A DNA stretch of 64,000 nucleotides from Stegostoma tigrinum (taxonomy: Eukaryota), in the NCBI RefSeq assembly GCF_030684315.1, contig NC_081370.1, positions 22,698,267-22,762,266 of the forward strand. Direction: 5' to 3'. This document shows, piece by piece, positions 9,606 to 61,438 of the stretch. The notes below the pieces were generated by a model. The model saw nothing but the letters and a program-made list of their open reading frames with translations. It made no database searches and was not told the origin of the DNA. A program made the translations under genes and the position numbers. How positions within the stretch are numbered: the stretch's first letter is position 1; each line of letters begins with the position of its first letter.

Positions 9606-9744
9606 TAAAAACACAAACAACTGTGGATGCTGTAAATCAGTCACAAAAACAGAAATTGCTGGAAAAGCTCACTAGGTCTGTCAGCATCAGTGAAGAAAAC
9701 AATCAGAGTTAATGTTTCAGGTCCGGTGACCCTTTCTCAGAACT
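9606..9744 (-). mobile_element. Short PLE family B terminus with HHR-like core and tail
   Basis: Homologous to 6261-6375 and 44231-44335. The minus strand begins agttctgagaaagggtcaccggacctgaaacattaact. Confidence 0.8.
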
Positions 9745-10369
9745 TCCTCAGTTTACGACCCAAATTCATTTCTTCAGATTACTTTGACAATTTAGGCAGG
9801 TTGCATAGTAAAAAGATGGGGAGACATTTTGTACAGTTTCTTAATATACTCTGCCACTTCTGGTATATCCATCCTGAATGGTGCTAGAAATGTTGTTAAT
9901 GCTTAACTGTTGTACATTTTACAACATTTTCTGTCATGCACAGATTTAACAATGTTGATCGCTTGGAATGTTGGTACATTCTTGTCCTCAGGGTTTCTCT
10001 TGGCCATAAGTTAAAGGACCACCCACACTTAACGCAAACACGAAAATTCCAAAGTCCACCAGGCAAGGCACGGAATTGAAAGCGAAATTTAAAGAAAACA
10101 ATTTCATTACTTCTGTTGGCAAGTTGTCATTATACAGTTACTGCTGCAACTTACACTTCCCCCACTGCACAGGAGGCATACTATCTGGTGAGAGTGCAAT
10201 ACCGTCAAAATCTGCCCATATAATTTAGATTACAATAACCTCAGGTTCAGGGTCATATCTTGTCGATGAGCTACTGCCATTACAGCAAAGAGGAAATTCA
10301 TCCGTACACTAGATAGCCAGGAGGAGTTATTAGTTTGAACATAGGAGATGTGAGCTGTCCCAGTTGATT

Positions 10370-10570
10370 TTATTTATTGTTGTCACATGTACTGAGGTAC
10401 AATGAAAAGTATTTTCTTTTGCTCTACAGGCAGTTTATAACATACAGAGTATAGAATACAGTGTCACAGCTGCAGAGAAGATGCAGGGAGAGAAAGATCA
10501 CATTTGAGAGGTCTGGTCCAAAGTCTGATAACAGAAGGGAAGAAGCAGCCTTGATTCTGTTCGTACTCAT
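10370..10570 (-). mobile_element. Possible LINE 3' end fragment
   Basis: Reverse-oriented tail (tttatttattgttgtcacatgtac...) resembles fish LINE 3' UTRs. Family not assigned. Confidence 0.35.
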
Positions 10571-10954
10571 ATCCTGCCATATATTCAGGGCCCTGAATTT
10601 TTAAATTGTTAAATAGGGGAAGAAAGAAATTATACTTGAGAAAATGATAGGTTCCCTAAGATAATTACACTTCAATTGGTTCATACTTACATTAAAAGGT
10701 TAGAATTTGAAAGCAAAAACAATAGGTGGCGTAGTTTAGAAATGCAGCCAGCATGTCTAGTAAGATTGCAGTTGATCCCGTTACAGATGCTATTTATTCA
10801 TGTGCCTTTTCCTAGTCAAAGAAAGCAACTGGTGCACAAAGGAAATTCCTAGTGTCCAAATTATTATCGGATATAAGGACATATTTTGGAAGGTGAAGTT
10901 AATTTGTTGAAATACTGTTAGGGAATATAGTTCCAATGATGATGACTAGTTTGA

Positions 10955-11635
10955 TGGGAACTTGCAGGTGGTGGAATCGCCAAGTATCTGCTTTCCTTGT
11001 CCATCTAGGTGGTAGAGGTTTAGGGTTTGGAAGGTGCTATCAGAGGAGCCTCGGTGACTTGTTTCTGTGTCCCTGTAGATGGTACACATCTCTGCCACTG
11101 CATCAATGGTGATGATGCCATTGTTTAATGTGGTGTGACACCAATCAAGAGGGCTATTTTGTCCCAGATGGTGTTGAGCTTCTTGAGTATTACTGGAAGG
11201 CACTCATCCAAGTAAGTGTTCCATCATACTCCTTGTGCCTTGTGAATGATGAACAGGCTTTGAAGTCAAGAGGTGAGTGACTTTCCACAAGATTCCTAAC
11301 ATCTTGCGTGCTCTATTAACTATGGCATGGCTAGTCCAGTTCAGTTTCTGGTTAATGATAACACCCCAGAAGGTTGATAATAGGGAGTTTGATGATGGAA
11401 TACAAAGGAGACAAGATTAGATTCTCTATTTTTGGACTTGACCTTTGTGTGGATCAAAACATTACGTACCACATGTCAGCCCAAGCCTGAATGTTGTCTG
11501 GCCTTGCTGCATATGGCTTCAAACTGCTTCAGTATTTAATAAGTTACCAACATGCTGAAAGTTGTACAATCATCACTAAATTTTTCCACTCCTGATAGAG
11601 GGAAGGTCAGTGATGAAGCTGCTGAAGATGATCAC
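10955..11635 (-). mobile_element. Decayed LINE (CR1/L2 group) RT C-terminal fragment
   Basis: Remnants such as TLKKLNTIWDKIALLIG and AVAEMCTIYR. Homologous to 52590-52960. Confidence 0.7.
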
Positions 11636-12559
11636 ACATAGGAAACATGACAAGCAAGTGAAAGCATAATGCTCTTTGTAAGCTAATGGCTCAATGTGAA
11701 CCCAGACACTGATGTCTCTGTGAATGTAATACTTCTCAATCCACAAATGATCAGAAAGTTCCAGAAAATATATGAAAAGCTCATGAAGGCTAGATCAGGG
11801 TAAAAATGTCTTTGGAATTACAGGGTTCAACTAATGATAGGTAACAGCAGCCCCAAGAGTCTATTGACCAGTTTGTCACATGATATAGCAGCATAGGGCA
11901 TGACTTTGACTTTTCCAAATAGGAACTGTTACTGAGGTTCATTGAGTTAGTTATTGCCTCTACACTAATCAAGCCTTTAGGAAGAAAATTTTGGGCAATC
12001 AAAGGGCCGTACCATTAATACATTACTTGTAGGTGCATGGGAGTGTGAAGTCTCATATTAGCAGACCAATAAAATTTGCAGTTTTTGGTGCAGCCAACAT
12101 TATTGCTATGGTCAGGAAAGTACATGACTCAACAAAATTCGTAATTGATATGGTTTGTCACACTTACTGAAAAGCTAACCAGCTTTTCTTTATATCAGCA
12201 AAGCATGCGGTAGTAAGCAGTGTCGGGCATACATATAAGGAAACCTGGGTACTTAAAACTTAACCAGAGCCTAGAACAAAGCGTATGTAACCAAGATGCA
12301 TAAACATAAATATGTCAATGAGACTCAGATCAACAAATTTCAGAATATGGTCAAGCTTTTCATATTCCATTACTACATTTTCATGGAACACCAATAGAGA
12401 TAAGTTTACCATCGCTGTCACAATATATGATCATAAGTATGAACAATCTTGTACAGCAAACAAGTATCTAACTATTCTGAGGCAATAGATATTCTTCTTC
12501 AAAGACCAAGTAGAATGAAAGAGATACATCATCAACAAGGGAGTAAAGACTGTGCACAT

Positions 12560-13200
12560 GACTGTGCACAAAGAACAAATTGTAAGCTTGAAATAAAATA
12601 CTTAGGTATCAGCAAAGTTAACCAGTACAGATCATACGAAGTCGATATTCATCATTGTATTATATTGTGAGGGAACAGAAATCAACTTAAAATGATGTGC
12701 AACACACCAATCATACATGAAGGGACAAAGAAAGAATGCTCCAATGATGATGACTGTGTGATGATGTTAAGTGACACCAACTGCTAATAAAACAATCAAG
12801 TTGTCAAACGAGTACAACAAACGGCAAAGTGCATCTCTCCAGATGGATGAGATCACCAGATCAGGATGAGTTGCCAGTCATCTGAAATGTTATGTTGAAA
12901 TCTGAAATGTTAATCTTATAACCTTTTTATAAAATATGTTTGTATAATTATCAAATTAACAACACATGCCTATGTGCAACCATTTATATCTTCCGGGATA
13001 ATTTTTTACCTTTTTGGAAGTGCATGTCATATAATGCCTCATGGTTAGTGTACCTTTAAGAGATGTGCTCATGGTATAATCACTATGTCATAGCATGTCA
13101 CCTGAGTATGTAAACATCTCTGATGCCATCTTACCTGTGATTACTTGAAGCATGGTACACTATTAAAAGCACACTACTCTTTGTAACCAAATAGTTTAAT
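12560..13200 (+). mobile_element. Possible highly decayed Gypsy LTR-retrotransposon 3' end and LTR
   Basis: ISKVNQYRSYEVDI....L*GNRNQLK resembles the post-integrase RSY.V...RRNR..L motif. A downstream tgt...cctttaag...attaaa segment at ~13025-13200 is LTR-like. Confidence 0.3.
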
Positions 13201-13233
13201 ATGAGCCCAAGCACTAATGTGCCTTTTTTTTCC

Positions 13234-13398
13234 TTTATTCATGGGATGAGGGTGTCACCGAATAGGCAGCATTTATTGCCCATCCTTAATTGCTCAGTGG
13301 ACAGTTAAGAGTCAATCACATTGTTGTGGGTGTGGAGTCACATGTAGGCCAGACCAGGTAAGGATGGTAGTTTCCTTCTCCAAAGGACATCAGTGAAC
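13234..13398 (-). mobile_element. 3' half of tRNA-derived SacSINE1-like SINE
   Basis: Homologous to 58046-58222 and, as reverse complement, to 51350-51511. Confidence 0.8.
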
Positions 13399-13744
13399 TT
13401 ATATACTAGTGAAAAGTTTTGAATGCCCACTGAATTCTTCTTTCCTACTTTCTTATGCTATCAGAGGAAAAATAAGATTTGTTCTATCAGGTAAAACATC
13501 CTGCTGGAGACAAAATGCACACGGGTTCCAGACAAACTGAAATAGCAGAAGTTCATAAAGCTCCCCAAATTTAATTTGGGTGCCGAGCCTTTAATTAATA
13601 CTGGCACTGGCCCGTCTCACAGCAGAATAGTTGATCATTGTTGATCGTGCAAATTCATGCAATGTGCATATGGTCCAAAGAAAGGTAGCAAAGCAAATGC
13701 AAGGAAGATACACATTGTCCACAAATAAGTGTAGTTGTTTTAGT

Positions 13745-22038: not shown

Positions 22039-22137
22039 AACAAAACAGAAATTACTGGAAAAACTCTGCGTGTCTGGCAGCATCTTAGGAAAAAAATCAA
22101 AGTTAATGTTTCGGCTCCAGTGACCTTTCCTCAGTTC
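22039..22137 (-). mobile_element. Short PLE family B terminus with HHR core
   Basis: Minus strand ctgaggaaaggtcactggagccgaaacattaact. Homologous to 44231-44335. Confidence 0.75.
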
Positions 22138-29452: not shown

Positions 29453-31237
29453 GAACTCCATTTACTCCCCTTTGGTCCAGGAACTCCCCACCTACATCCG
29501 TGACACCACCCATGCCCTCCACCTCCTCCAGGGCTTCCAATTACCTGGCCCCCAACACCTCATTTTCACCATGGACGTCCAGTCCCTCTACACCTGTATT
29601 CCTCATGCACATGGCCTCTTCTGATTCCTCCCACTTCCTACAGACTAAGGGGGTGGCCATGGGCACCCGCATGGGACCCAGCTATGCCTGCCTCTTTGTA
29701 GGTTACGTGGAACAGTCCCTCTTCCGCACCTACACAGGCCCCAAACCCCACCTCCTCCTCCGTTACATTGATAACTGTATTGGTGCCGCCTCTTGCTCCC
29801 CAGAGGAGCTCGAACAGTTCATCCACTTTACCAACACCTTCCACCCCAATCTCAAGTTCACCTGGGCCATCTCCAACACAACCCTCACCTTCCTGGCCCT
29901 CTCAGTCTCCATCTCAGGTAACTAGCTAGAAACTGAAGTCCATTTCAAGGTCAATGACTCCCACAGCTACCTAGAATACACCTCCTCCCACCCACCCTCC
30001 TGCAAAAATTCCATCCCCTATTCCCAATTCCTCCGCCTCCGCCGCATCTGCTCCCAGGATGAGGCATTCCACTTCCGCACATCTCAGATGTCCACATTCT
30101 TCCAGGACCGCAACTTTCCCCCAGCAGTGGTCGAGAACGCCCTTGACCACGTCTCCCGCATTTCCCGCAACACATCCCTCACACCCCACCCCCGCTGCAA
30201 CCGCCCCCAGAGGATCACCCTCGTCCTCAAATACCACCCCACCAACCTCCGGATACAACGTATCATCTTCCAACACTTCCGCCATCTACAATCCGACTCC
30301 ACCACCCAAGCCATTTTTCCATCCCTACCCTTGTCTGCCTTCCGGAGAAACCAATCTATCCGCGACTCCCTTGTCCACTCCACAATCCCCTCCAACCCCA
30401 CCACACCTGGCACCTTCCCCTGCAACCGCAGGAAGTGCTACACTTGCCCCCACACCTCCTCCCTCACCCCCATCCCAGGCCCCAGGATGACCTTCCATAT
30501 CAAACAGATGTTCACCTGCACATCTGCCAATGTGGTATATTGTATCCAGTGCATCCGGTGTGGCTTCCTCTACATTGGGGAAACCAAATGGAGGCTTGGG
30601 GACCGCTTTGCAGAACACCTCCACTCGGTTCGCAATAAACAACTGCACCTCCCAGTCGCGAACCATTTCAACTCCCCCTCCCATTCCTCAGATGACATGT
30701 CCATCATGGGCCTCCTGCAGTGCCACAATGATGCCACCCGAAGGTTGCAGGAACAGCAACTCTTATTCCGCTTGGGAACCCTGCAGCCCAATGTTATCAA
30801 CGTGGACTTCACAAGCTTCAAAATCTCCCCTTCCCCTACTGCATCCCAAAACCAGCCCAGTTCTTCCCCTCCCCCCACTGCATCCCAAAACCAGCCCAGC
30901 CTGTCTCTGCTTCCCTAACCTGTTCTTCCTCTCACCTATCCCTTCCTCCCACCTCAAGTTGCACCTCCATTTCCTACCTACCACCTCATCCCACCTCCTT
31001 GACCTGTCCATCTTCCCTGGACTGACCTATCCCCTCCCTACCTCCCCACCTATACTCTCCTCTCTACCTATCTTGTTTTCTCTCCATCTTCGGTCCACCT
31101 CCCCCTCTCTCCCTATTTATTCCAGTTCCTTCTCCCCATCCCCCTCTCTGATGAAGGGTCCAGGCCCGAAACATCAGCTTTCCTGCTTCTGAGATGCTGC
31201 TTGGCCTGCTGTGTTCATCCAGCTCCACTCTTTGTTA
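29453..31237 (+). mobile_element. 5'-truncated PLE family A (Neptune-type) copy: RT, Cys linker, GIY-YIG EN and pLTR with HHR; probable 9 bp TSD
   Basis: QTKGVAMGTRMGPSYACLF, RYIDN, CNRRKCYTC, NVVYCIQC..C..LYIGET, LGTLQPNVIN. Has an internal deletion at ~29618 and a stop at ~29923. tctataaat at 29444-29452 and 31238-31246. Confidence 0.95.
31148..31175 (+). ncRNA. Minimal type I hammerhead ribozyme core in PLE pLTR
   Basis: CTGATGA-A-GGGTC-CA-GGCCC-GAAAC-ATC. Confidence 0.65.
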
Positions 31238-32008
31238 TCTATAAATATTGAGGTTTGGTACATCAAAAAAAGGAAGTGTTCTGAATAATATTATAAAACA
31301 TTATTCATTGAATGCCCTGCCTCAGTTTTTCACCAGTGCCATAATGGCTGATCAGAAACACAAAGTGCTTTTTAACTTATAATTCCAAATTATCTGTTTT
31401 ATTTCAGAAAAAGAGAACTGCTACAGGTGAGGAAAGAAAAAGACCACAGGGGTAAATTCAATACAGTCTAAGAAAGTGGCGTACTGGACACATGGAATGT
31501 TACACCTGTAGAATGTCAGAAACATTTCGAACAGGAATAGAGAGATGTAGCAGGGTGAGACATAAGAAGTTGTTATCTCCATCTTAGCAGAAAGCCACTT
31601 TCAGCATTTTTTTTTGTGCAATGTCCTTCCAGGGATTTATAAACCAAGTGCAACCCTGGTCCGGGAGTCCTTGTGGAAGAAGATGCACTAGTGAACTGAG
31701 GTCCATGTGTATTAGCCTGGATTTGAAGGTTGGAGTGTTGTGAAGGTCACAGTCAAACAATCACCCATTTAGTAACACTGCATTGTGAATGAAACAACTC
31801 ACTCACAGTCAACCAGCAAACCACATCAGAAGGAAAAAGAAATAAAAAATCAACAAAACTTCAAAAGTCAAGAATCCCAAAATCAATTGTTCAACTATCA
31901 ATGTCTCCACTATCTAAGTTTCCCAAACTATTCGGGAAGACTGAACCCGATATATTTTAACTTTTGTCTTTTCTTGGAGTCACTTCTTGATCCTAATCCA
32001 TATGTATA

Positions 32009-32314: not shown

Positions 32315-34138
32315 AAAAGTAAATGTTGCATAGTTCTTTCTTTTTGCATTCAGTAGCTAGCAAACTCATTCTTCCATTAACTCAAGAAAGCCTGGTTACA
32401 TTGACTCCTTTTTGAAACATAAATTCATTTGGCCTGGGAGTAAAGCATCCACAAGGGAGGGATTTAAAAAAAAAATAACCTTGTGGTAACAGACTGGGTG
32501 TTCATTTGAATAAGTATGAGGAGCCTGTTCATCCTTCCTTACTCAAGAGTTTAATGAATTAAGGTATCCATTTGGAACTATGACTTCAGGAACTTCACCT
32601 GTGTATGGTTGCAACAATCAATTCATGAATAGAAACAATGTGTGCCATATTTACAGATGGGTGCCCATTAACTATGGATTGGATAATAAAGGGGACTGGA
32701 CAAAGAGACCCTTTACTCTACTGTGGCGAAAGCTGTGTCTTATCCAAATGGTGAAGATGTCTGACATCTTCTAAGTTACTTAGTTTTCATTGAGTCAGTG
32801 ACATTTTCAAAACCCAACAGCTGGGTCCTGACATTTTAGTTTTTGGGTCAACAGTAAACCACTGAAGCAATTCTCCATTTCACTTGCAGCTCATTTACCA
32901 AGTTAAATGAAAATTTCAGAGGGTTTGGTTAATAAAACCAAAAAATTCAATATTCCAACACAAACCTCGTTCCTTTGGTTGCGGGTGGGGTTGACTGTGG
33001 TAAAAGTATTGTGTTCACAGAATATTTCAGCCTAATCAAGCATTCCCAGGTGGAAAATGAATTCATCATCAACTAGAAAAAAAGTGTACTAACAAAATGT
33101 ACAGCAAATGGATGAAAACTCTATGAACTACAGGCCTACAGTGAAGTACTAATTTAGCTGCATATGTTTGTAGTCTTGCAAAGGAATTGTCCTGCATTAG
33201 TGATTAGCTCGATTTGAAAATATATTAAGTTTCCCATACTCTATTGCTTTTGTTATGTAAAAGGGAAACAGTAGTGGTTTAAGGAGATATTGAAGTGGAG
33301 ATACATATGGAAGAATTTGAATTTGAATTGAAATTTCAATAAAAATGTGTTTAAATGCGTAAGGGTGCCTCTAATATCTTAGATAGGCAAACATGTCATG
33401 GTATGAAACCAGAGTCATCAAACCTTTGCGACTGACCTGTGAGTGGGAATGCTACAACTGGCTTCAGTCTCTGCAAGCTGAAGGGAGAAATGTTTCTGAT
33501 TTTGCATCCACTATGTCAATCTATTTCAAAAACTGAATTTCCCTCCTAAATTTTATCCAACAGTTCTGTTTTCTTCATTACTCTACTGATTGTGTGAATC
33601 ATGGCTGGTGTCCTGTTCTCTGGGTGCGAGTCTTCATCTGCTGCCTCACTTATGCATACCATCCCTGAAAGTGTGTGTTAGCAGAGACAATTCAACCAAA
33701 GTGGTATCACAGCCCTGTCTATGCTGGCCCACTGTGTTGATGCACATGAAGTACCTAAAGGGGTTGCTACCCGGCAGCCAGGAATGAGAGCTTTGGTTAA
33801 TGTTCATATCTGAACCTAGGGACACTGACATCATTTTAAAGACTGTCAGGGATAAGTGAATTCAGCGCAGTTGATGAATACCTTACCTGTATACTTCAAC
33901 TGCTTGTGAGATAAATGCACTGAGCTACTGAGGGAAATTAAGTGATTCCTGTCCAAGTTTTATGTTTTTCTCCATTTAAAATCATGACCATGGAGGCCAT
34001 TTTCATACTGAGCCATACAAGGAACAACTATGTGCTACGAGATAATGGGAACTGCAGATGCTGGAGAATTCCAGGATAATAAAATGTGAGGCTGGATGAA
34101 CACAGCAGGCCAAGCAGCATCTCAGGAGCACAAAAGCT

Positions 34139-34166
34139 GACATTTCAGGCCTAGACCCTTCATCAG
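34139..34166 (-). ncRNA. Minimal hammerhead ribozyme core (CpG-decayed)
   Basis: CTGATGA-A-GGGTC-TA-GGCCT-GAAAT-GTC. Confidence 0.55.
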
Positions 34167-34390
34167 AGACGGGGATGGGGAGAGGGAACTGGAATAAATA
34201 GGGAGAGAGGGGGAGGCGGACCGAAGATGGAGAGTAAAGAAGATAGGTGGAGAGAGTGTAGGTGGGGAGGTAGGGAGGGGATAGGTCAGTCCAGGGAAGA
34301 CGGACAGGTCAAGGAGGTGGGATGAGGTTAGTAGGTAGATGGGGGTGCGGCTTGGGGTGGGAGGAAGGGATGGGTGAGAGGAAGAACAGG

Positions 34391-36460
34391 TTAGGGAGGC
34401 AGAGACAGGTTGGACTGGTTTTGGGATGCAGTGAGTGGAGGGGAAGAGCTGGGCTGGTTGTGTGGTGCAGTGGGGGGAGGGGACAAACTGGGCTGGTTTA
34501 GGGATGCAGTTGGGGAAGGGGAGATGTTGAAGCTGGTGAAGTCCACATTGATACCATTAGGCTGCAGGGTTCCCAGGCGGAATATGAGTTGCTGTTCCTG
34601 CAACCTTCGGGTGGCATCATTGTGGCACTGCAGGAGGCCCATGATGGACATGTCATCTAAAGAATGGGAGGGGGAGTGGAAATGGTTTGCGACTGGGAGG
34701 TGCAGTTGTTTGTTGCGAACCGAGCGGAGGTGTTCTGCAAAGCAGTCTCCAAGCCTCCGCTTGGTTTCCCCAATGTAGAGGAAGCCACACTGGGTACAGT
34801 GGATGCAGTATACCACATTGGCAGATGTGCAGGTGAACCTCTGCTTAATGTGGAATGTCATCTTGGGGCCTGGGATAGGGGTGAGGGAGGAGGTGTGGGG
34901 GCAAGTGTAGCATTTCCTGCGGTTGCAGGGGAAGGTGCCGGGTGTGGTGGGGTTGGAGGGCAGTGTGGAGCAAACAAGGGAGTCACGGAGAGAGTGGTCT
35001 CTCTGGAAAGCAGACAGGGGTGGGGATGGGAAAATGTCTTGGGTGGTGGGGTCGGATAGTAGATGGTGGAAGTGTCGGAGGATGATGCGTTGTATCCGGA
35101 GGTTGGTGGGGTGGTGTGTGAGAACGAGGGGGATCCTCTTGGGGCGGTCGTGGCGGAGGCGGGGTGTGAGGGATGTGTTGCGGGAAATACAGGAGACGCG
35201 GTCAAGGGCGTTCTCGATCACTGTGGGGGGAAAGTTGTGGTCCTTGAAGAACTTGGACATCTGGGATGTGCGGGAGTGGAATGTCTTATCGTGGGAGCAG
35301 ATGCGGCGGAGGCGGAGGAATTGGGAATAGGGGATGGAATTTTTGCAGGAGGGTGGGTGGGAGGAGGTGTATTCTAGGTAGCTGTCGGAGTCGGTGGACT
35401 TGAAATGGACATCAGTAACTAGCTGGTTGCCTGAGATGGAGACTGAGAGATCCAGGAAGGTGAGGGATGTGCTGGAGATGGCCCAGGTGAACTGAAGGTT
35501 GGGGTGGAAGGTGTTGGTGAAGTGGATGAACTGTTCGAGCTCCTCTGGGGAGCAAGAGGCGGCGCCGATACAGTCATCAATGTTCCGGAGGAAGAGGTGG
35601 GGTTTGGGGCCTGTGTAGGTGCGGAAGAGGGACTGTTCCACGTAACCTACAAAGAGGCAGGCATAGCTGGGGCCCATGCGGGTGCCCATGGCCACCCGCT
35701 TAGTCAGTAGGAAGTGGGAGGAGTCAAAAGAGAAGTTGTTGAGGGTGAGGACGAGTTCGGCTAGGCGGATGAGGGTGTCGGTGGAGGGGGACTGGTCTGG
35801 CCTGCGGGACAGGAAGAAGCGGAGGGCCTTGAGGCCATCTGCATGCGGAATGCAGGTGTGTAGGGACTGGACGTCCATGGTGAAGATGAGGTGTTGGGGG
35901 CCAGGGAATTGGAAGTCCTAGAGGAGGTGGAGGGCGTGGGTGGTGTCACGGACGTAGGTGGGGAGTTCCTGGACCAAAGGGGAGAAAATGGAGCCCAGAT
36001 AGGTGGAGATGAGTTCGGTGGGGCAGGAGCAGGCTGAGACGATGGGTCAACCAGAGCAGGCAGGTTTGTGGATTTTGGGAAGGAGATAGAAACTGGCCGT
36101 GCGGGGTTGGGAACAATGAGGTTGGAGGCTGTGGGTGGGAGGTCACCTGAGGTGATGAGGTCATGAATGGTGTTGGAGATGATGGTTTGGTGCTCGGGCA
36201 TGGGGTCATGATCGAGGGGGCGGTAGGAGGTTGTGTCGGAGAGTTGGCGTCTGGCCTCGGCGATGTAGAGGTCAGTGCGCCATACTACCACTGCGCCACC
36301 CATGTCTGCGGGTTTGATGGTGAGGTTGGGGTTGGAGCGGAGGGAGCAGAGGGCTGCCCGTTCTGTGGGGGAGAGGTTGGAGTGGGTGAGACGGGTGGAG
36401 AGGTTGAGGCGGTTAATGTCTCGACGGCAGTTGGAGATGAAGAGGTCGAGGGAAGGTAGG
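34391..36460 (-). pseudogene. PLE polyprotein (reverse transcriptase + GIY-YIG endonuclease), 5'-truncated and frameshifted
   Basis: The 495 aa open frame 34391-35878 has MDVQSLHT, VAMGTRMGPSYA, LRNIDD (YIDD mutated), CNRRKCYTC and VVYCIHC..C..LYIGETKRRL. The upstream IKPADMGGAVVV lies in another frame. Confidence 0.9.
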
Positions 36461-36788
36461 ACGCCAGTTCGTCCCCTCCCCCCACTGCACCACACAACCA
36501 GCCCAGCTCTTCCCCTCCACTCACTGCATCCCAAAACCAGTCCAACCTGTCTCTGCCTCCCTAACCTGTTCTTCCTCTCACCCATCCCTTCCTCCCACCC
36601 CAAGCCGCACCCCCATCTACCTACTAACCTCATCCCACCTCCTTGACCTGTCCGTCTTCCCTGGACTGACCTATCCCCTCCCTACCTCCCCACCTATACT
36701 GTCTCCACCTATCTTCTTTTCTCTCCATCTTTGGTCCGCCTCCCCCTCTCTCCCTATTTATTCCAGAACCCTCACCCCATCCTCCTCT

Positions 36789-36816
36789 CTGATGAAGGGT
36801 CGAGGCCCGAAACGTC
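36789..36816 (+). ncRNA. Minimal type I hammerhead ribozyme core
   Basis: CTGATGA-A-GGGTC-GA-GGCCC-GAAAC-GTC, with palindromic ACGT in place of helix III. Confidence 0.75.
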
Positions 36817-39800
36817 AGCTTTTGTGCTCCTGAGATGCTGCTTGGCCTGCTGTGTTCATCCAGCCTCATATTTTATTATCCTGGAACAACTATGTGCTGT
36901 CAGTTTTCTGCCACTGATATTGATTCTGCTTTTGTTCAATCTTTTTGTAAGCAACACAAATTAATTTGTTTACTGTGCTTAATTATATACGTACTCTGCA
37001 AACAAAGATTGCTTAAGCCTGAGCAATAGTATTTGACTTTACAATCTTCTTGTATTTCTTTTCTCAGTCTTTTTTAACCACAATAGTTTTCTTCCTTCAG
37101 TTTCCCTTTCTGTGCTTTTCTTCTGTCTTTGTTTTCTTATTTTATCTCAAATGCTCAAGCTCAGGTCAAGCATGGTGTGAAATATGCCAAATTGTCTGCC
37201 AAATAATGAAGAAAAATTTCTTGGATACTCTGCAAATGCTACTATCTAAATCTTTCCCCGTGAGCTCTGGAGTGAAGTGAACCATTTGTGTTTGCTCTTT
37301 AGTTGCTTTTGCTAATGTCCAGCAGGGCCTTGACTAATTTCTGTTCAAAAAACCTTTAACATTAATATGAGGAATAACTGTTTCAAAGTAAAGCACAAGT
37401 TAAGTGAAAATGAACAATTTGAAAATATGAAAAATGTGTGAGTAAAAATGAAATAGAAGTGGACAAATATTTTATGCCTCTTTATTAAATACCAGCTGTC
37501 TTAGTATCCCATTGAGAGACACCTACATCTGCCACAAATACTGGGAATACCCTTGTCTGCATAAGTGAGAATGAGCTGGGGGCACCACATGCAACAGCTG
37601 AAGCCACGAGTCTCTGGTTTTCCTGAATCAAAATAAAGCAGGGACATAATGCTTGCAATTGGAAACACACAGGACTAGAACACAGTCTATCAAAACAAAC
37701 ACTTGATCCAAGTACCTTTTCCCTCGTTTATTGCTGCAGATCTCTTCGCTCAATCAGTAAGTTGTCATCAAAATTGCCTGTTTCTCACTACTAGCCCTGT
37801 TTGGTAAACAAGTGTTCTACACTGTTAGTTAGTAAATCCCAGGGAATGGAGAGAAAAGTCCCAAAATCCAAAATAAACTGAAAATTCTGTAGATGCGTAG
37901 CAGGTCAGCAAGCATTTGAATCGGACAATTATGGGGATACAATTGATGGTTACAAAGGTTTGAGAATGTTCCATAAATCATTATAATGCTGTCTATTTTT
38001 CAAATGGTAAAGGTCTTGCTGAATACTTACAGAATTTTCTGCTTTTGTTGTACAGCCTTTTACTGAAAAATTAATCCAGCCAGGCATGTATTTTTTATTT
38101 GTTTTTATCAGTTCGAGTCCAGTATTTCTCTTGTCTGCATGAAAATTTAACAATATTGCTGTAAGCCTAAGTCTGCACTGCAGTAAAAAATATCAAGTAA
38201 AACGAGCTTGAAATTCATTAAGTCATTGGCAAAAGTTGAGAAATTATGAGAGTACAGCTGAGAATGTAAATTCTGGAAGCGAACAACACATGTGTGGTAC
38301 TTTGTGTCTCAACGTTAACGATGATGCACAAGTCCACCCAGCTCAAATTAGTTAAAGGCCATACCTGCAAGGCCCCTAAATTAGATTGTTATATTTGGAA
38401 TTCAGAAGTCCTTGTTTCTGGATAGTCAAGCTTGAATCCACAGAAAAATCACAGTTTGGAACGCCATTTTTAATTTTAAAAATATTCATACTTTCTCAGC
38501 ATTGGAATGCACTAGCCATGATTTTCTGTCCATTAAAACCATTCACGTGTAACATTCTAATCAGCTTCAGGAACACGCAAAAGTGCCGCAAGCCACGTCA
38601 CTCTGACATGTTTTCATGCCCAGCAAAAACGTTTCTGGCTTCTGATAGTGATCTGCACACAGTTTCCCCCTGCCCTCTGCCCTCTGCCCTTCATTAAACA
38701 ACGAGTTTTGGGACCCCACAATTAGAATTGTGACTAATCTCATAACCTTCTTTATGGTTGTTTCCTTCTCCCTTGTTCACAACCATGTACAAATGCAATG
38801 TGAAACATTACGACTGTTGATGTAATAAATTCTGTCGCTACTTTAACAGTAATTTATTATACTTGTTTATTTGGTGTTAAATTGTGATCTAACCTGCATT
38901 TGTAATGTTAAGGAGCACCTAAAATGCTTTCTTAAAATTTCAATTTGTTAGTCCAAAATTTGTTTTGAGTTTGGTGAAGTCAGATTATGCTGTGGCACTC
39001 TGTAATATAACAGTTAAACAATTGCCCCAAAATACAAGATGTTTTTAATACCAGAATCGATGACTGTCAATCCAAGTATGTTCAGTTGAATGGATTAAGG
39101 AAATTTAAAATTTTGATCTAATTCTTAACTGCTGGAAATTGTAAGCCCTTACCTGATGTTCACCTCCCCTCCTTTGCAAAAACAACTTGATAATACAGAT
39201 AATAGAGCTAAAGTAAGCATACCATAAAGAAACTCTGACATACAGAATATCTGATAGTACTTGAAAAAACAGTAGTAAATAGAAGTGCTCAGCAAACTCA
39301 CCTCACTGGAGTATTAGCAATGCAATAGTTGAATGAGTATATATTGTAGATTATGTTTGTCCATGTTTCTGGCAAGCCTAATATTCATAGCTCAAACTTA
39401 AATAATAATAATTTTTTAAAAAGCAGATTCATTTGGTAGTATTAATAACCTTGAAGAAACTGTGAGATACCTCTGGGAATTTTTGACCCTCTGAATTGTC
39501 CAAGTCATGGCCATGTCTGTGTTGCGTATTTAGGAGAGAAATGTATGCTGATTGACAGTGACGGCAGATGTCTGCAGAGTGCTCCCTATCTGGACTGTGC
39601 TCTTCCACCTGTTTACTGTCGGTTCATATCACTCCCTGACCTGCTGACCAACTTACACTCCCTGGAGCATCTGAGTTCAAGCATCCTTACATATATAGAG
39701 ACTGAAAATCTTTGACAGCCCCTAAATTATTCCAGCAAGAGTGGGCTTTCTGTTCAGCCAGTTATTTTTCTTTCTGCTGCAATTTTTTTCTTCCCTTTCT

Positions 39801-44170: not shown

Positions 44171-44230
44171 GGTCAGGACAAACTGCCTCTTCTCAATTTA
44201 TTTTGCATTCTAATTACCAGTTATTGTTAT

Positions 44231-44335
44231 CAGGAACAAAAAAATAATTGCTGGAAAAGATCAGCAGATCTGGCAGCATCTATGAAGGAAAAAACAGAGT
44301 TAATGTTTCGGGTCTGGTGACCGTTCCTCAGAACT
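44231..44335 (-). mobile_element. 105 bp PLE family B terminus beginning at the HHR, 12 bp TSD
   Basis: agttattgttat at 44219-44230 and 44336-44347. The minus strand begins AGTT-CTGAGGA-A-CGGTC-ACCA-GACCC-GAAAC-ATT-AACT. Confidence 0.85.
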
Positions 44336-45175
44336 AGTTATTGTTATGGCTTGTAGTCTTATCCTTCAGCCTTGGCCTTTGTGTCTGCTGATGCCTGCCT
44401 GTGTATCAAAGAGTTAAATCTTTGTGTGTTGACATACTAAGAAGTCAATCATCTGTACCCAGTACAACCATGCCACAGCATTCGAAAAAGACATATTGTG
44501 GCTACTGAATGATGGTGATATTGATGGCAATGAGGTTGGTGGTGCACTGCCTTAAGAATCCTTGATTATTCCCAATCCTATTAGATTTGGAAAAAAATCT
44601 CAGTTTCATACTGCTATTCTAGCTTCTTTGTTAGCATATAACCATTTACAGAAAGAAGACCTAAATACCCTTGATGACTTGAGGGTAGAAGACTTTTCTC
44701 AGATATTCTTGAAGTTGTTATCTACTTGATAATGGATTACAATATTGCTGTACATTGCTAACAATTTTTCCTCCACGCAATCCACATTTGTTGCCCTGTT
44801 ATTTGGTACAACCCTAATGCTTCAAGACTCGATGTTCAGAAAGTCATTCTTCCTTTGAAAGCACAAATCATGAAATATAAATCCTCAGAATTATCAGCTA
44901 AGTTATGACATATGCTGTCTTTTTGGGCAGTACAATATATACATGTTGAAGATGCAGGGAGTTCCATTTTATCAAATTATGCAACATTTAGAGGGAAGAG
45001 TCTGTTTGTGCTCAATAATTTATGATCTGCCAAGGCTGTAAAATGCTCTTAAAACATGATACTCTATACTCAGCAGATCTCACAACCTGTTTTTGTCTAA
45101 CTTGGCCACAACACTACATACTTTTCTATCTTGTATGTTTCTTTTAGACATAATCTGAGTATGCCATTCCTTTTT

Positions 45176-45310
45176 TAAAACTGCAAGAACTGAGGATGCT
45201 GTAGATCAGAAACAAAAACAGAAGTTGCTGGAAAAGCTCAGTAGGTCTGGTAGCATCTGTGAAGAGAAATCGGAGTTCATGTTTTGGGTCTGGTGATCCT
45301 TCCTCAAAAC
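45176..45310 (-). mobile_element. Short PLE family B terminus with tail
   Basis: Homologous to 9606-9744. Confidence 0.8.
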
Positions 45311-47589: not shown

Positions 47590-48195
47590 CGTGGTTACCT
47601 CTAGATTGGGGAGACTAAATGTAGACTGGGCAACTGATTTTATGTTCAGTTCGCAAAAATGACCCTGAGCTTCCAGTTGCTTGCCACTTCAACACACTGC
47701 CATGTTCACTTGCAATGTGGGCTTGCTGCCATGCAGAGCAAACTGGAAGACAACATCTTATTTTCCACTTGGGGATCCAGTAGTCTTCAGGACTAAATAT
47801 TAGGTTCAATAATTTTAGTGTCTGAACATCTTCCACGCTCTTACCCAATCCCTATCTACAAAGCATCATCATTACATGGGCTACTTACACCACAGCCAAC
47901 CCACTTTCACCCACTACTGGCTCCTACTAGTAGCTTTTCATTCTTCATAGCTCACCATTATCCACTCCTTTGTTTGCCCCACTATAGTTGTGTCTCTCTC
48001 TCTCTCTGGGCTCCATCTCCACTAATTGTTTACTCCTTCCCTCCCCACCCCCTCAGTCTTCAGCATAAGTACTAACCTTTTCCTAGCCACAATCAATTCT
48101 GAAGAAGGGTCACTAGACCAGAAACATTGACTCTGCTTTCTCTGCACAGATGTTGCCAGACCTGCTGAATATCTTCAGATATTTCTGTTTTTGGT
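47590..48195 (+). mobile_element. Decayed PLE family B 3' portion: GIY-YIG remnant, 3' UTR and HHR core
   Basis: IGETKCRLGN...SVRKNDPELPVACHFN...LIFHLG...GLNIRFNNF. ctgaagaagggtcactagaccagaaacatt at 48099-48128. Confidence 0.8.
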
Positions 48196-53360: not shown

Positions 53361-53384
53361 GTATAGTTGATGGCAAGAACTAAG

Positions 53385-55637: not shown

Positions 55638-57439
55638 ATTGTTTCCTTCCACCCTAATTCACTTATCCTCTCAGCATAGCTTTCTGTTATTTTTGTTCAG
55701 CATCTTTTTAATTGTATATGTGCTATTTATTTCAACAACTGTTTGTGTAATAGGCTCCACATTCTAAACTCACTGCATTGCCATCCAACGAAGCAGTGTT
55801 AACCTGCAGAGACAACCACACAATCCCAATTAAGACAGTCTTAAAACAAGTAGCTTAGCAAATATGCCATGCATGGAGAGATAATATTGACAGGGTAAAC
55901 AAATTCACAAAGGCAGAAGTCCAAATCACAAGGTTGTAAGTCTTGTTTTTCCCTCGCAGTCCTTTTGATTTTCAAACAGTAAGATACTGTGGCTGGTATG
56001 ATAAGAGTCATTATTCAATTCAATGGTTGATCAGGTACTTTGGTCATTTCATGTGTGAGTTCTTCCTTTTGAGTTTCTAGGGTTTTCTATTTTCTCTCTA
56101 CATTGAGTGAAATAGAGACGGGGAGAGGGAGGATGCTGTTTGTAGACTGGTCTTTTTCTGATCTTGGTACTTACAACATTTAACACACTGCAGCTCAACC
56201 AATCAGAAACATGTTGACAGGCAGAATTTTCTGAGCTCGAGGTTCTTGGTACAGTTCAGTCTCAACTTTGGCCTCTTTTTGCTTCCAAAAAACAACACTG
56301 TATGTCACAGCTCACCAACAAACAACATTTGTTTTTCAAGGTGGAAAACAATCTTATTTTCCATTGAAGCATTTGAATTTCCATTTTACTGTATAGTCGC
56401 AAAAAATGAAAAATGTCTGGTTTCTTACGCTGGATATTTGTAAAGAAATTGACAGCTCTGAGCAAGATTTTAATTTATCTGCCTTAGTTAATGAGCTTAT
56501 GATGTTTTGAGGATGACACTGCAGGATATTTTAATATTCTGTGATTGTTAAATTGGAAAATGTCATGGTTCAGAACTGATCAATTTTCTACTTCTTAAAA
56601 ATTAAATTGTCAGTAAGCGTACTCTTGCTGATGCTTGGTAAGAACCTCGTTCAGGGTAAAACTTTTTCTATACTATTATCCAATTTTCCTTAACCTTACT
56701 TTGAAGCAGACCCACTGGACAAGAGTGATATTTCATTGTTTTTACAACAGCTGAGTGAGCTTTGCAGTTTGTTGAAAAAATATGATTGGGTCAGATGATG
56801 ACTCATTAATTCAGATATCAGTCGCAAAGGGAACATCACAGAATACACTCCTTCTGTTTGGCAGAGGTTGAGGGGAGGTTTCTCTTTTGTTAGGTAATAG
56901 TTCAGAAAGGGTTAATGTAGTAGACTGTACTAAGTTCCAGCAATCTAGTAATGTAATGTAGTCTGGTTGGTGAAACCATAAGTACATATGAAACTCAAAG
57001 GGGAAGGATGTGTCATCTATGTCTCTCAATAACAATGTCTACTTAGTTAATGTAATTTGTATCTAATTGCTATCGTCCAATAAATTACTTGTTGTCAAGA
57101 TAAGAACTTCCTTGTGTTAAGACTCACTGGTGGTGGGGAGCACTGGAATGAAGCGAGTGAGTGCTATACTGAGGAATATTTTATACCTATAAAATTCTAA
57201 GCATTTTTTAGGTGCTGGTAATGCTAACAAGTTTACTAGTATTTTCACTGTAGGTGAGAAGAACTTGCTTTGGATGAAAATACAATACATTCCTGGTGGG
57301 CTGGCTTACGCCCCAATGTTCATTATTTCTTCCAGCAGATTCCTGGGCCATTAGATCGAATTTCAGTTTACCAAGATTTTTATACATCCTCTCTTAAATG
57401 TAACCAACTAGAGATAATTTTTCCTACATTCTCTGTGTC

Positions 57440-57690
57440 TTGTAAATTTCTTCTTTTTCTCTCTAGTATCTGCCATCATGCCGCTTTTTACACTATTACC
57501 ACTTCTGTTATTAAAATATTTCCTGTTCTTCACCTGATGACGTTACATGTCATTCTCTTCTCTTTTCTTGTCTACATGATTTGCTCATTTTGCTCATTCT
57601 CTTCACAAATGTTGCCAGACCTACTTTCTCCAGCACTTTCTGTTTATAGTACAGATCTTCGGCATCCACAATATTTCACTCTTATTTTAC
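57440..57690 (+). mobile_element. Old PLE 3' UTR/terminus remnant
   Basis: cacaaatgttgccagacct...ccagcactttctgtttat...cagatcttcggcatccaca. A sister copy lies at 59805-59910. Confidence 0.55.
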
Positions 57691-58045
57691 TCATTCCGAT
57701 TATTCTTTTGAGAGTTTCCTCTGTAATATCTTGCACAGGTTTTTTTTGAAATATCAACATTTCTATCCTAGTGGTTAATATTCATGGATTTACCCTGTGT
57801 TGAGAGCATTTTCTGCTTCTGTTGCATTCTTTTGGAATGAACTGTTAAAACACTTGTAAGTCTTCCGGATAAACTGTGAAAAGGTATTATGAAGCACTGC
57901 TAAACTTACAGATAGGAGTGTCTTATTCACTGGAACATTGGCTTTCAATGTTATCGGGATTTAACCGCATTGCCATCAGTGCTCTAAGTTGGACATTTAC
58001 TTATCAAAAGCACTTTTGTAGGATAGCAGACTTGCCAAGCTCTGA

Positions 58046-58405
58046 TTTTTTTCTTTATTTGTTCATGGGATGAGGGTATTGCTGGATAGGCAGCATTTAT
58101 TGCCCATCTGTACTTGCTAGAGGGCAGTTGAGAGTTAACCACATTGCTGTGGATCTGGAGCCACATGTAGACCAGACCAGATAAGGATGGCGGTTTCCTT
58201 CCCTAAAGGGCATTAGTGAACCAGATGGGATTTTTCAACAATCGACAATGGATTCATGGTCATCATTTGACTCTTAATTCCGGATATTTATTGGATTCAA
58301 ATTCCACCATCTGCTACGGCGGGATTCTAACCCAAGTCCCCAGAACGTTATCTGGGCTTCTGGGTTAACAGTCTGGTGATAATACCATGAGGCTATCTCC
58401 TCCCC
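58046..58405 (-). mobile_element. SacSINE1-like tRNA-derived SINE, full length
   Basis: tRNA-like head, conserved core and LINE-like tail. Four copies in the window. Confidence 0.85.
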
Positions 58406-59804
58406 AAAAATGATAGTGAATTACCAAGTCTTTGATAAACTTGTTTCCCATAATGCATAAACTACATATATTATTTTATGATTAGTACAAACCCAAAGAG
58501 ATGTTTTTGCTTCGCAAGTCTTAGAGACTAAACAGCTGCATTGGGCCATACACTGACCATCCAACTTTAACTGAGATATGAGCCAATTTATAAAATTAAA
58601 ACATGAACAATTTACATTTAAATTATTTTTTTCCCATAATGAACTAAGCTATGTATTTCACAGAATGATGACTGCTGGACCAGTAGCAACAACATATTTG
58701 CCAGTTTGGTCATTCAGATATGTGTTTGGACTCCACTATTAGTTTAACTGCGCGCTCTTTTTCTGGTGGTCCCTTTTAAATGTATCATAGCATTTTGTAG
58801 ATGCCCATTGCTCTGAGTTGTACTCCTGTGCCCTCTAACATGGTGCATACAATTACCAGATGGAAAATATTAGTTCTGCTGAATAAAACATGGCACAGTC
58901 TTGCTGCTAACCAACACAGGTTGGATGAATCTGTCATTTAAGCAGCATGAATTTCTGTGGCCAATTCTATAATCCATGAGCAATGTGATACTAAACAAGG
59001 AATCTAGTGTTATCCAATCAGCCCTGGTCAGAAAATCCCCGTTTAGTGGAAGTGCTGCCAAACCTCCTCACTTTTGTGAAAGCAAACTGAAGCAGGAGCC
59101 AAAATGACACTTCATCCTTAGTTCATATATCTGTAGGCATCTGACCAATTTTAACACACACCACCTTTTTCTGTCAATGCTCGCATTGACCACCTCTGAG
59201 CTCTCTGTGCTTTTAATCTTTCTTTCACCTAATTATAGGGAGAAATTGGGGGGTGACATTTAAAGAAAGAATGGTTAAGGGTCTGTTTCCATGCTGCACA
59301 TCTCTATGATTCTATGACTCTATGAGTTGAGAAACACAATTAACATGCATGATGATCTGCCCTGAATGTCAAAAGCTGGTCTCTCATCAAGTCTTATGCT
59401 ATCGTAAACAAGGTTTTTTTCTCCTCAGTACAGTTGTTGCTCTGGTATCACGAGCTGACAGGTTCAAATTAACTCTACTTTAACTATGTACAGTATTTTT
59501 TGAAATGTAGTGCACTGGAATAGGCATTAACAGATCATTAACAAATGGCAATCTAGGATCTGTTCTTATCACAATTTGCACTGATCCAAAGTGATTTCAT
59601 CTTCACACCAGTAACTCTGTAATCCTGTACAAACTTTAAGTTCAATATTCAGTGATTATTCATCCAATGCTCTAAAAACCTTTCATGCTTAATTTTATTT
59701 TTTTTTCAGTTTCAGTGGAGTGTTGTTTGCCTACTATATGAATAGTCATATTCATATGACTGTTCTTCATATGTATATGAAGAATAGTCATATTGGATGC
59801 AAAA

Positions 59805-59910
59805 CAGTGACTGTTTCTCTCTTCACAAATGTTGCCAGACTTACATTCTCCAGCACTTTCTGTTTATATTACAGATCATCAGCATCCACAGTATTTCACT
59901 CTTACTTTAT
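59805..59910 (+). mobile_element. Old PLE terminus remnant
   Basis: Near-match to 57595-57690. Confidence 0.55.
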
Positions 59911-61091
59911 GCCCATAGAGAGGTGGAATGGATTCATTGGTAACTGTCTTGCCACTGAGCTGGAAGGCTCTGTGTTTTAAGTCCCACTGCTGTGAAAGAA
60001 CCCAGCTATTTGCAAGTGAGTATGTATTGGTGCTGGTCAACAAGCCAGATAAGAAATTTAGTGGTAAGTGGGGTATCTTGCTGAAAAACTACCTGGCAAT
60101 CCAAAATATAGTTGATGTGATAATGATGAGCAAGTATAACATGGGAAAAGCCAACAGAGAAATGAAGAAATAGTACCTGGTGAATTCAGCTTGACATTTG
60201 CTCTGAAGAACCTCCATGTTCAACATGGTCAAAACATCTCATGGCACATTCCATTGGCATCATCCAGCCAGACACCACATCCATGGACATTGGCACCTGG
60301 TATGTACCAATCTCTAAAAACACTCATGGCACATCTCCAATCCACTTACAGGCCACTCCTATGCATTCAGAACTGTACTTGGGGCTGCACCAGCAATGAT
60401 CATTGCAATGCTGCTCCAATGATCCTCTGGTTCAGCTCATGGACTGGAACAGGCTGCATCTCTGAGCTTTTCATTCATTGTCATAGTACTCATTCAGTCT
60501 TATCACTATCTGGATGCTGCAAGTACCATGTTTCTGTTTTTTTTATTTTTGTGTCTTTAAAAACTGTTGACAGTAAAGGAAAGAAACTTTTTTTTCATAA
60601 GAAAACAGGGATTTATCTGGATTGCTGCATAATTTCACAGCAAGGAATTTGATATCTGTTGTAAACTCTCCCTTTGTGGTTGTATGTCCCTTCCATATGC
60701 AGATGATCAAAGCTGGGGAGTTGTTTACAAGTGAAGATGGTTGGTTCAAAACTAATTGAACAGGTTGGAACGGGAATCAAGTAACAGAGGTGCAGGCATA
60801 GAATGGCAGAGAGAGACACTGAGAGACTGTGTATGCAGTTGTTCCCCATAGCAGAAGCTGCCTGTTCTTTGCAGTAAAACAGAACTCAGTTTATACTTGA
60901 AGAAAATTAGGTACCTTTCTTGAAGCAGTTTCTGGAATCAAATTGACAAATTCTAGTGAATCAGCCACCCTATTACTTACAAACCATTGGAAGCTCCTGG
61001 AGAACGAAAACTAAACACTAAGGGCTTGGCCAGTGAAGATGGATCATTTAGATGTTGGGATTGGGAAGCAATGATGCACTGAACTGTATTT

Positions 61092-61294
61092 GTTATGTCC
61101 CGCTTTCTATTTATCTGTTTAGGTTTCCTTGGGTTGGTGATGTCATTTCCTGCATTGGTGATGTCATTTCCTGTTCTTTTTCTCAGAGGGTGGTAGATGG
61201 GCTCCAAATCAATGTGTTGATGGAGTTCCAGTTGGAATGCCATGCTTCTAGGAATTCTCATGCGTGTCTCTGTTTGGCTTGTCCTAGGATGGAT
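61092..61294 (-). mobile_element. Fragment of a third PLE family (Poseidon/Penelope-type EN C-terminus)
   Basis: SILGQAKQRHA*EFLEAWHSNWNSIN followed by HIDLEPIY, with a 21 bp tandem duplication (ttggtgatgtcatttcctg). Confidence 0.65.
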
Positions 61295-61438
61295 AGAAAA
61301 AAACAGTTATTGTTTCGGGTCCGGTGACCCGTCCACAGAACAGAGGAAAGGTCACCAGACCCAAAACGTTAACTCTGTTTTTAACCTTCACAGATGCTGC
61401 CAGGCCTGCTGAGCTTTTCCAGCAACTTTGTTTTTTTC
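61295..61438. mobile_element. Inverted pair of PLE family B HHR-bearing termini
   Basis: 61295-61341 is on the minus strand and 61342-61438 on the plus strand. They meet at the CTGAnGA cores. Confidence 0.8.

What the first reader, a model, noticed from the sequence alone, without database searches (positions are those of the whole stretch)
9606..61438. Family of ~100-140 bp elements whose 5' end sits at the start of a hammerhead helix I
Seen: copies at 9606-9744, 22039-22137, 44231-44335, 45176-45310 and 61295-61341 all stop within a few nt upstream of the CTGAnGA core. The consensus is AGTT-CTGAGGA-A-GGGTC-ACCG-GACCC-GAAAC-GTT-AACT, where AGTT can pair with AACT. Random 5' truncation would not normally give five matching ends. 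Inference: either a non-autonomous, retrozyme-like ribozyme-headed unit mobilised by PLE enzymes, or a strong RT stop or strand-switch point at the folded (dimeric) ribozyme. This is my best candidate for an undescribed system here.
Basis: partly seen in the sequence, partly recalled or inferred. Interest (0 to 1): 0.7.

Follow-up and report, generated by a model that had tools for sequence, protein, structure and literature searches.

The report
Penelope run-off stubs marking transcript start
These short repeats are end pieces of a very abundant Penelope-type jumping gene, not a separate family, and their shared left edge likely marks where the parent's RNA begins, so they are likely dead-end copies that ran off the front of that RNA and offer a clue to how this poorly understood class copies itself.

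Summary
The pile-up is real. In 1.34 Mb of the genome sampled without regard to the element, 50 of 129 copies start within a 10-nt span at the hammerhead head. The copies are the terminal 'R' segment (head to 3' tail) of a Neptune/Nematis-type Penelope-like element (PLE) with a GIY-YIG endonuclease. Short and long copies are not separable on a tree, carry no diagnostic changes and form no tandem arrays, so the retrozyme-family reading fails. Three of seven copies that run from R into the ORF begin at the same spot. A second PLE family, about 65% alike in its coding part, shows the same wall. Both families have their only TATA-like site in 400 nt at -30/-31. The edge lies about 33 nt upstream of the predicted cut, on the far side of the ribozyme for the reverse transcriptase. 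Best reading: the edge is the transcription start, and the stubs are cDNAs primed at the transcript's 5' R copy that ran off its end (about 0.7). No RNA start was observed and no cap-G signal was found. The scan reached this reading before on other DNA, including this genome.

The parts
9606..9744 (-). Family A R-only copy, +1..+137, with tail; core G8 changed to A, helix III CpG decayed; no clear TSD
9707..9744 (-). Minimal hammerhead head of that copy (helix I 5' strand, core, helix II, helix I 3' strand)
22039..22137 (-). Family A R-only copy, +5..+101, tail-less, 83% identity; starts at the core; helix II mismatched; no clear TSD
44231..44335 (-). Family A R-only solo copy, +1..+105, tail-less; C at helix II position 10.1
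44219..44230 (.). Left copy of the 12-bp TSD of the 44231-44335 insertion
44336..44347 (.). Right copy of the 12-bp TSD
45176..45310 (-). Family A R-only copy, +2..+135, with tail; core C3 and G12 changed; TSD call ambiguous (two different candidates)
61295..61341 (-). Short arm (+2..+45) of a head-to-head fold-back unit
61343..61441 (+). Other arm (+7..+102) of the same fold-back unit
6261..6470 (.).
48097..48193 (+). Older relative of family A, R-only, +3..+99, 82% identity
18347..18436 (-). Family B R-only copy starting just inside the core, 13-bp TSD: the same phenomenon in the second family
34036..35993 (-). Long, 5'-truncated family B PLE (RT C-terminal part, CX4CX2C linker, GIY-YIG-type region, U3, hammerhead, tail), used as the comparison family
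61745..63280 (.). Young inverted pair of family B long copies; its hammerhead at 63151 was used for folding

Best explanation
The short elements are copies of the R segment of an autonomous Penelope-like retrotransposon, likely made when its reverse transcriptase primes at the tail site in the 5' copy of R on the element's own RNA and runs off the RNA's 5' end, which is predicted to be a TATA-driven transcription start at the first bases of hammerhead helix I. Steps. (1) Shown: the parent is R-ORF-U3-R; R occurs both before the ORF and after the 3' UTR. (2) Inferred: a promoter in U3 of a partial-tandem copy starts the RNA at +1/+2. (3) From PMC11167929, assumed to carry over: the enzyme nicks target DNA and starts reverse transcription internally at two sites about 35 nt apart. 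Shown here: short and long copies end at the same two 3' positions, about +100 and about +138. (4) Inferred: priming in the 3' R gives long, randomly 5'-truncated copies, while priming in the 5' R gives at most about 100 or 138 nt and stops at the RNA end. (5) Shown: such stubs insert with 8-17 bp TSDs, alone or as one arm of a head-to-head unit whose two arms nearly always use different tail sites. Inferred: both target strands are primed in one event. (6) Inferred: stubs lack the upstream TATA site and are dead ends.
For: The parent exists: 9 of the top 30 genome hits continue into shared U3, and from there into GIY-YIG coding sequence. Of 20 loci found with the 5' part of the ORF, 7 run from R into the ORF: 3 start at about +1/+2 with unrelated flanks, 1 at +10, 2 at +33/+35, and 1 carries 144 nt of U3. 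Starts form a wall: 5.7 per nt at the head, 0.12 per nt in U3, 0.56 per nt downstream. Family B shows the same wall: 7.4, 0.15 and 1.24 per nt. The best TATA-like site lies at -31 in family A (27 of 30 long copies) and at -30 in family B (51 of 76); apart from overlapping registers at -33 and -29 in A, it is the only such site in the 400 nt upstream in either profile consensus. Locus L194 holds a 1.4-kb arm and an inverted R-only arm starting at about +5 inside one 17-bp TSD. Tail asymmetry holds in 16 of 18 A pairs and 47 of 57 B pairs, against 8.9 and 28.4 expected. Short and long copies are not separable. Contigs of a second organism show loose ends at the same +1..+3 edge.
Against: No RNA 5' end was observed. 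No cap-derived G was found: among 27 solos beginning GT at +2, the preceding base was A 12, T 9, G 4, C 2, and among 12 beginning AGT it was C 8, G 3, A 1; family B shows no G excess either. The modal solo edge is +2 (32 of 41 match), not the initiator-like A at +1 (15 of 41). The edge keeps the same offset from the ribozyme core as from the TATA site in both families, so position alone cannot separate promoter from structure. The TATA matches have 1-2 mismatches to a recalled consensus. D. virilis Penelope has an internal, apparently TATA-less promoter and starts well upstream of its hammerhead (PMC2377424, PMC4209133). Only 7 ORF-joined 5' ends were seen, and their 3' ends lie outside the fetched loci. 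Only 10 of 42 and 7 of 27 solos showed a TSD above threshold.
Confidence: 0.7

Rival explanations
1. Structure-set end. The RNA starts further upstream, and the edge is set by the folded or protein-bound ribozyme, either as an RT stop or strand-switch point or as a block to 5'-to-3' RNA trimming.
For: The edge is 3-4 nt before the core in both families. In family A it coincides with the first pair of helix I in the predicted fold. Many fold-back junctions lie there. A stop acting at both R copies of a tandem transcript would also give ORF-joined copies that start there. No cap G was seen.
Against: By inference, an RT pause is expected at the 3' foot of the fold (+26 or +38), where family A has no peak. 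Family B's helix I has only about 2 pairs in the hammerhead register, and its predicted lowest-energy fold is a different hairpin, yet the offset is the same. A TATA-like site at -30/-31 in two different U3 sequences is unexplained.
Confidence: 0.15
2. An independent non-autonomous, retrozyme- or SINE-like family with its own master copies, mobilised in trans.
For: R-only copies far outnumber long ones: 112 of 129, about 270,000 when scaled to the genome. They have their own TSDs. Retrozymes derive from PLE pLTRs (bioRxiv 10.64898/2026.07.22.740005).
Against: Tree label changes were 27 against 27.9 shuffled (p 0.33). Nearest neighbours shared class in 63 of 127 cases against 79.9 shuffled. Subfamily variants are shared by short and long copies, and no site had p below 0.02 among 96 tested. 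There are no arrays: 4 of 129 have a same-strand neighbour and only one pair abuts. A long arm and an R-only arm occur inside one TSD. Caveat: 96 columns give a weak tree, so a small derived subfamily could be missed.
Confidence: 0.06
3. Endonuclease-defined end: the GIY-YIG domain or host repair trims a longer cDNA or tandem DNA intermediate at a fixed site in the pLTR.
For: The related PAc enzyme cuts its own pLTR DNA in vitro (PMC11167929). The edge is sharp.
Against: The sequence at the edge differs between the families, and TSDs show no matching fixed target. It does not explain the -30 site.
Confidence: 0.05
4. The edge is a 3' splice acceptor, as the Penelope intron end maps to helix I in D. 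virilis.
For: Family A has a branch-point-like motif, a pyrimidine run and CAG just before +3. G at +2 is the best-kept base. PMC4209133 reports the D. virilis case.
Against: Family B has no AG at its edge. No shared first exon precedes the short copies: 2 of 69 flanks are alike, and those two read as insertions in one host repeat. Only 0-9 heterogeneous bases separate the TSD from the head. ORF-joined copies share nothing upstream.
Confidence: 0.04

Closest known systems
[quoted passage not shown]
   Same: Type I core, 4-bp helix I, unpaired base between positions 9 and 10.1, no helix III but a palindromic pair at 15.2-16.2; most motifs are dispersed single copies that the authors call probably truncated PLEs.
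   Different: In the parts read, the paper does not map copy ends. Here the single copies start at a fixed point just before the core.
EN+ PLEs of the Neptune/Nematis type (PMC8557442, PMC3846280; passages read)
   Same: C-terminal GIY-YIG, CX2-5CxxC linker, 5' truncation, partial tandems, inverted 5' partner, optional 30-40 bp tail, TSDs; a TATA plus initiator-like motif was noted in a rotifer pLTR.
   Different: R-only copies with their own TSDs are the majority here. The rotifer solo pLTRs lacked TSDs and were ascribed to recombination or deletion. That paper favoured antisense self-priming for inverted units, whereas the tail asymmetry here favours two priming events.
PAc Poseidon of Anolis (Frangieh 2024, PMC11167929; parts 1-2 of 4 read)
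   Same: Two RT start sites bounding the tail; both target strands cut and extended; uncleaved RNA is the main template.
   Different: It belongs to the Poseidon clade, which has no Cys linker. Its ORF starts inside the hammerhead, whereas here the long frame's ATG lies about 180 nt downstream. The parts read do not address priming at the 5' R or run-off copies.
Non-LTR retrozymes (PMC7229834, passages read; bioRxiv 10.64898/2026.07.22.740005, parts 1-3 of 5 read)
   Same: Short, non-coding, hammerhead-bearing and pLTR-related.
   Different: Retrozymes are tandem arrays cut into monomers at the ribozyme site, with a canonical type I ribozyme in PMC7229834. Here there are no arrays, the edge is about 33 nt off the cut site, and there is no separate lineage.
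Minus-strand strong-stop DNA of LTR elements (recalled, no call)
   Same: A short cDNA that ends at the 5' end of an R-bearing RNA: what the stubs work like.
   Different: It is tRNA-primed and normally transferred rather than inserted. Here the cDNA is target-primed, so the run-off product is fixed in the chromosome.

Membership tests
EN+ Penelope-like element (parent, family A) | RT with C-terminal GIY-YIG endonuclease | tested here: met
   The GIY-YIG-type motif and CCHH-type residues read directly in L019, L185 and L186. Pfam GIY-YIG E 0.0043, below the curated cut-off. Pfam gave no RT hit on the two other fragments scanned, so RT rests on motifs read by eye.
EN+ Penelope-like element (parent, family A) | pLTR architecture: partial tandem, inverted 5' partner, optional 30-40 bp tail | tested here: met
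   L219 has U3 before R and the ORF; L213, L217 and L223 have an inverted R; 3' ends are bimodal at about +100 and about +138.
Neptune/Nematis clade | CX2-5CxxC linker before the endonuclease | tested here: met
   C-X4-C-X2-C in both families; definition from PMC8557442.
Neptune/Nematis clade | Placement in an RT phylogeny | not tested
   No reference PLE set was at hand, so Neptune and Nematis are not told apart.
PLE minimal hammerhead | Conserved core, helices I and II, palindromic 15.2-16.2 | tested here: met
Met in intact copies (fold).
PLE minimal hammerhead | Self-cleavage as monomer or dimer | not testable with these tools
   Indirect only: no excess of starts at the cut in family A (0 of 46 solos); a modest excess in family B solos (8 in 5 nt against 11 in 37 nt, p 0.0009, window fixed after the histogram was seen).
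Non-LTR retrozyme | Head-to-tail tandem units, each with a ribozyme | tested here: not met
   4 of 129 have a same-strand neighbour within 150 nt and one pair abuts; TRF finds no such array in the window.
Non-LTR retrozyme | Monomer ends set by self-cleavage | tested here: not met
   The edge is at +1/+2 and the predicted cut at +34/+35; 3 of 129 start at +32..+40.
Non-LTR retrozyme | Linear and circular monomer RNAs | not testable with these tools
   No raw RNA reads were offered.
Independent non-autonomous family | Short copies form their own clade with diagnostic changes | tested here: not met
   short alignment, limited power.

The most novel reading that the evidence does not exclude
Vertebrate Neptune-type PLEs make a terminally redundant RNA whose first 35-40 bases are the hammerhead. 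A dimeric enzyme primes both target strands at two different tail sites, on either R copy. About 100,000 inserted 'strong-stop' cDNAs in this genome record the transcription start to the base, and in the GUC-triplet family a second, smaller set records ribozyme cleavage in vivo, which would remove the capped front of the RNA.
Probability: 0.5. Interest if true: 0.65.

Novelty: new variant of a known kind. Interest (0 to 1): 0.45.

Why it matters
The PLE replication cycle is largely unresolved: where the RNA starts, what the ribozyme is for, and how inverted units and tails form. If the stubs are run-off copies, any PLE-rich genome maps its elements' transcription starts without RNA data, internal priming is shown to act on the 5' repeat as well, and a ribozyme at the very front of the mRNA becomes a testable decapping or translation-off switch. 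For annotation, roughly 270,000 such fragments here should be filed as PLE debris, not as a SINE or retrozyme family.

Tried and rejected
Rfam: no hammerhead family among the 8 matches at E up to 5; the weak miRNA hits at 6330-6438 come from the fold-back unit. ARAGORN found no tRNA. Sequencing runs: no RNA holder listed. Contigs of four guessed-RNA runs were laid on L219; contigs cannot show a start, and no spliced joint was interpretable. Cap-G test: negative or underpowered. Whether short copies extend further into the ORF than long ones: no clear difference, with 11 of 53 solo and 8 of 50 long ending past +142. Cut-site peak in family A: absent, although 2 of 7 ORF-joined copies start at +33/+35. 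My first label, Poseidon, was dropped once the Cys linker was seen. A complete family A copy was not read end to end. Literature searches returned no paper on this pattern: 2 papers listed, general; 1, unrelated; 0; 0; some searches gave the background papers. The library lacks most subscription journals and Repbase/Dfam entries, and no supplement was read; those of PMC4209133 and PMC11167929 may show copy ends.
Full report
Numbering. +1 is the A of the AGTT head, the hammerhead core C is +5, and the predicted cut follows +34. 'R' is the segment from the head to the 3' tail; 'U3' is the sequence upstream of it in long copies. Family A is the family of the finding; family B is the long PLE already present in the window.

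Observation. They span +1..137, +5..101, +1..105, +2..135 and +2..45. The last is one arm of a head-to-head unit. The window holds another such unit at 6261-6470 with a 14-bp TSD, and the solo at 44231-44335 has a 12-bp TSD. An intact copy folds into the proposed helices I and II, but each of the five has lost core or helix III bases.

Genome-wide test. The window lies in a 3.2-Gb genome. I fetched 134 stretches of 10 kb chosen by round coordinates or by adjacency to the window and scanned them with profiles of both families. Of 133 family A hits reaching past +50, 4 were dropped as edge-cut or misassigned. Of the 129 left, 50 start at -3..+6, 21 at +7..+16 and 3 at +32..+40. Without the 200 kb beside the window the figure is 43 of 110. 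A stricter pairwise call on copies at least 85% identical, including flank copies from search loci but not the hits the queries picked, gave 40 of 95 in 7 nt: 5.7 per nt, against 0.56 per nt downstream and 0.12 per nt upstream. The profile was trained on relatives of one window copy, so the weakest hits include older subfamilies whose U3 might fail to align. Against that artefact, only 2 of 69 solo flanks resembled each other, and TSDs were found in 10 of 42 solos against 2% of shuffled pairs. Scaled up, about 120,000 copies start at the head.

The parent. Nine of the top 30 hits continue upstream into shared sequence that runs into GIY-YIG coding sequence with a C-X4-C-X2-C linker. By the definition in PMC8557442 (passages) this is the Neptune/Nematis type. 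The longest copies followed reach about 2.8 kb. A search with their 5' part gave 20 loci; 7 run from R into the ORF. Three of these start at about +1/+2 with unrelated flanks. One starts at +10 and two at +33/+35, each beside an inverted R. One has 144 nt of U3 in front. R therefore stands at both ends of the unit, and ORF-joined copies share the stubs' edge. The long frame opens about 180 nt after the head in both families.

Not a separate family. Over 96 R columns of 127 copies (31 long, 96 short; copies under 70 matches and loci picked by the endonuclease query were left out), no site separated the classes after allowing for multiple tests. Nearest neighbours shared class in 63 cases against 79.9 shuffled, and the tree needed 27 label changes against 27.9. 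There are no arrays. Locus L194 holds a 1.4-kb arm and an inverted R-only arm inside one 17-bp TSD, so one event made both.

What sets the edge. Family B, about 65% alike in coding sequence and with a different U3, shows the same wall: 52 of 271 in 7 nt. The best TATA-like site is at -31 in A (27 of 30 long copies) and at -30 in B (51 of 76), and apart from overlapping registers in A no other such site occurs in 400 nt of either consensus U3 (motif recalled). With queries that excluded the head, solos matched the parent at +2 in 32 of 41 cases, at +1 in 15 and near background before -1. Self-cleavage does not set this edge, which is about 33 nt too far upstream. A splice acceptor fails in B, which lacks the AG, and there is no shared first exon. 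An RT pause would by inference fall at the 3' foot of the fold. That leaves the RNA's own 5' end as the simplest cause. Against this, no cap G was found, no RNA start could be read, and the edge is as tightly tied to the ribozyme core as to the TATA site.

Mechanism. PMC11167929 (parts 1-2 of 4) shows that a related PLE starts reverse transcription internally at two sites bounding the tail and extends both target strands. Short and long copies here end at the same two places. On an R-ORF-U3-R RNA the priming site occurs twice, and use of the 5' copy can only yield about 100 or 138 nt before the template ends. Of 129 copies, 58 sit in head-to-head pairs; one arm has the tail and the other lacks it in 16 of 18 A pairs and 47 of 57 B pairs, and 8 of 18 A pairs show a TSD against 1% of controls. 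This fits two priming events per insertion. The promoter, the cap and the 5'-R priming are inferred; the architecture, the end positions, the TSDs and the lack of a short clade are shown.

Ribozyme trace. Family A (GUU triplet) shows no excess at the cut: 0 of 46 solos. Family B solos (GUC) show 8 in 5 nt against 11 in 37 nt, p 0.0009, with the window fixed after I had seen the histogram. This is a hint only.

Comparison and novelty. The parent is an ordinary EN+ PLE, and dispersed single minimal hammerheads are described in PMC4209133 (parts 1-2 of 4). Retrozymes differ in being tandem and cleavage-defined. D. virilis Penelope has an internal promoter (PMC2377424, parts 2-3 of 4). A rotifer pLTR has a TATA plus initiator-like motif (PMC3846280, passages). 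Searches found no paper describing run-off R copies; the library is incomplete and supplements were not read. My reading was written down before I consulted the scan's notes. Those notes hold the same reading for other windows of this and other genomes. They are not independent support, and their cap-G claim was not reproduced here.

Verdict. The feature is real, and it belongs to a known class of element as a by-product rather than a new system. Its exact edge makes a testable statement about PLE replication. Interest 0.45.

Noticed in passing
window 63147-63280 and family A R, about +55..+62 with +115..+122: Both families keep a short inverted repeat inside R that folds into a long hairpin lying around the tail-less end; a candidate protein-binding or priming signal.
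   Followed up: no
L207, L217, L219, L228, L237, about +150..+180 from the head: In both families a pyrimidine run plus CAG sits just before the long frame's ATG, and a short upstream frame starts near +57; a possible 5'-UTR intron or uORF control.
   Followed up: partly
L150:834-1120: One head-to-tail R-R dimer next to an inverted arm; possibly a template jump from a run-off cDNA to a second RNA.
   Followed up: no
family A position +13, e.g. window 44323: A G-to-C variant at helix II position 10.1, without a compensating change, is shared by 16 of 96 short and 3 of 31 long copies; a subfamily likely spread with an impaired ribozyme.
   Followed up: partly
L027, L246, L004, L009 5' junctions: 0-9 extra bases between TSD and head, twice CA-rich; likely untemplated additions.
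   Followed up: no
window 57597-57689 and 59808-59909: Two 92%-identical copies, 2.2 kb apart, of an older R-like element lacking the head.
   Followed up: no
window 29456-31256, 34036-36897, 61745-63280: Family B is younger (96-99% between some copies) and abundant; the best candidate for RNA and in vitro work.
   Followed up: partly
L210, L211, L214, L222: Four loci share their whole flanks at 89-99.8%: a duplicated region carrying nested A and B insertions, so they are not independent events.
   Followed up: no
L219 positions 1184-1496 joined to 1015-1021, in run contigs: Several contigs of a second organism join ORF positions back to the head at +1..+5 (table 5c); tandem junctions or circles, not resolved.
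   Followed up: no
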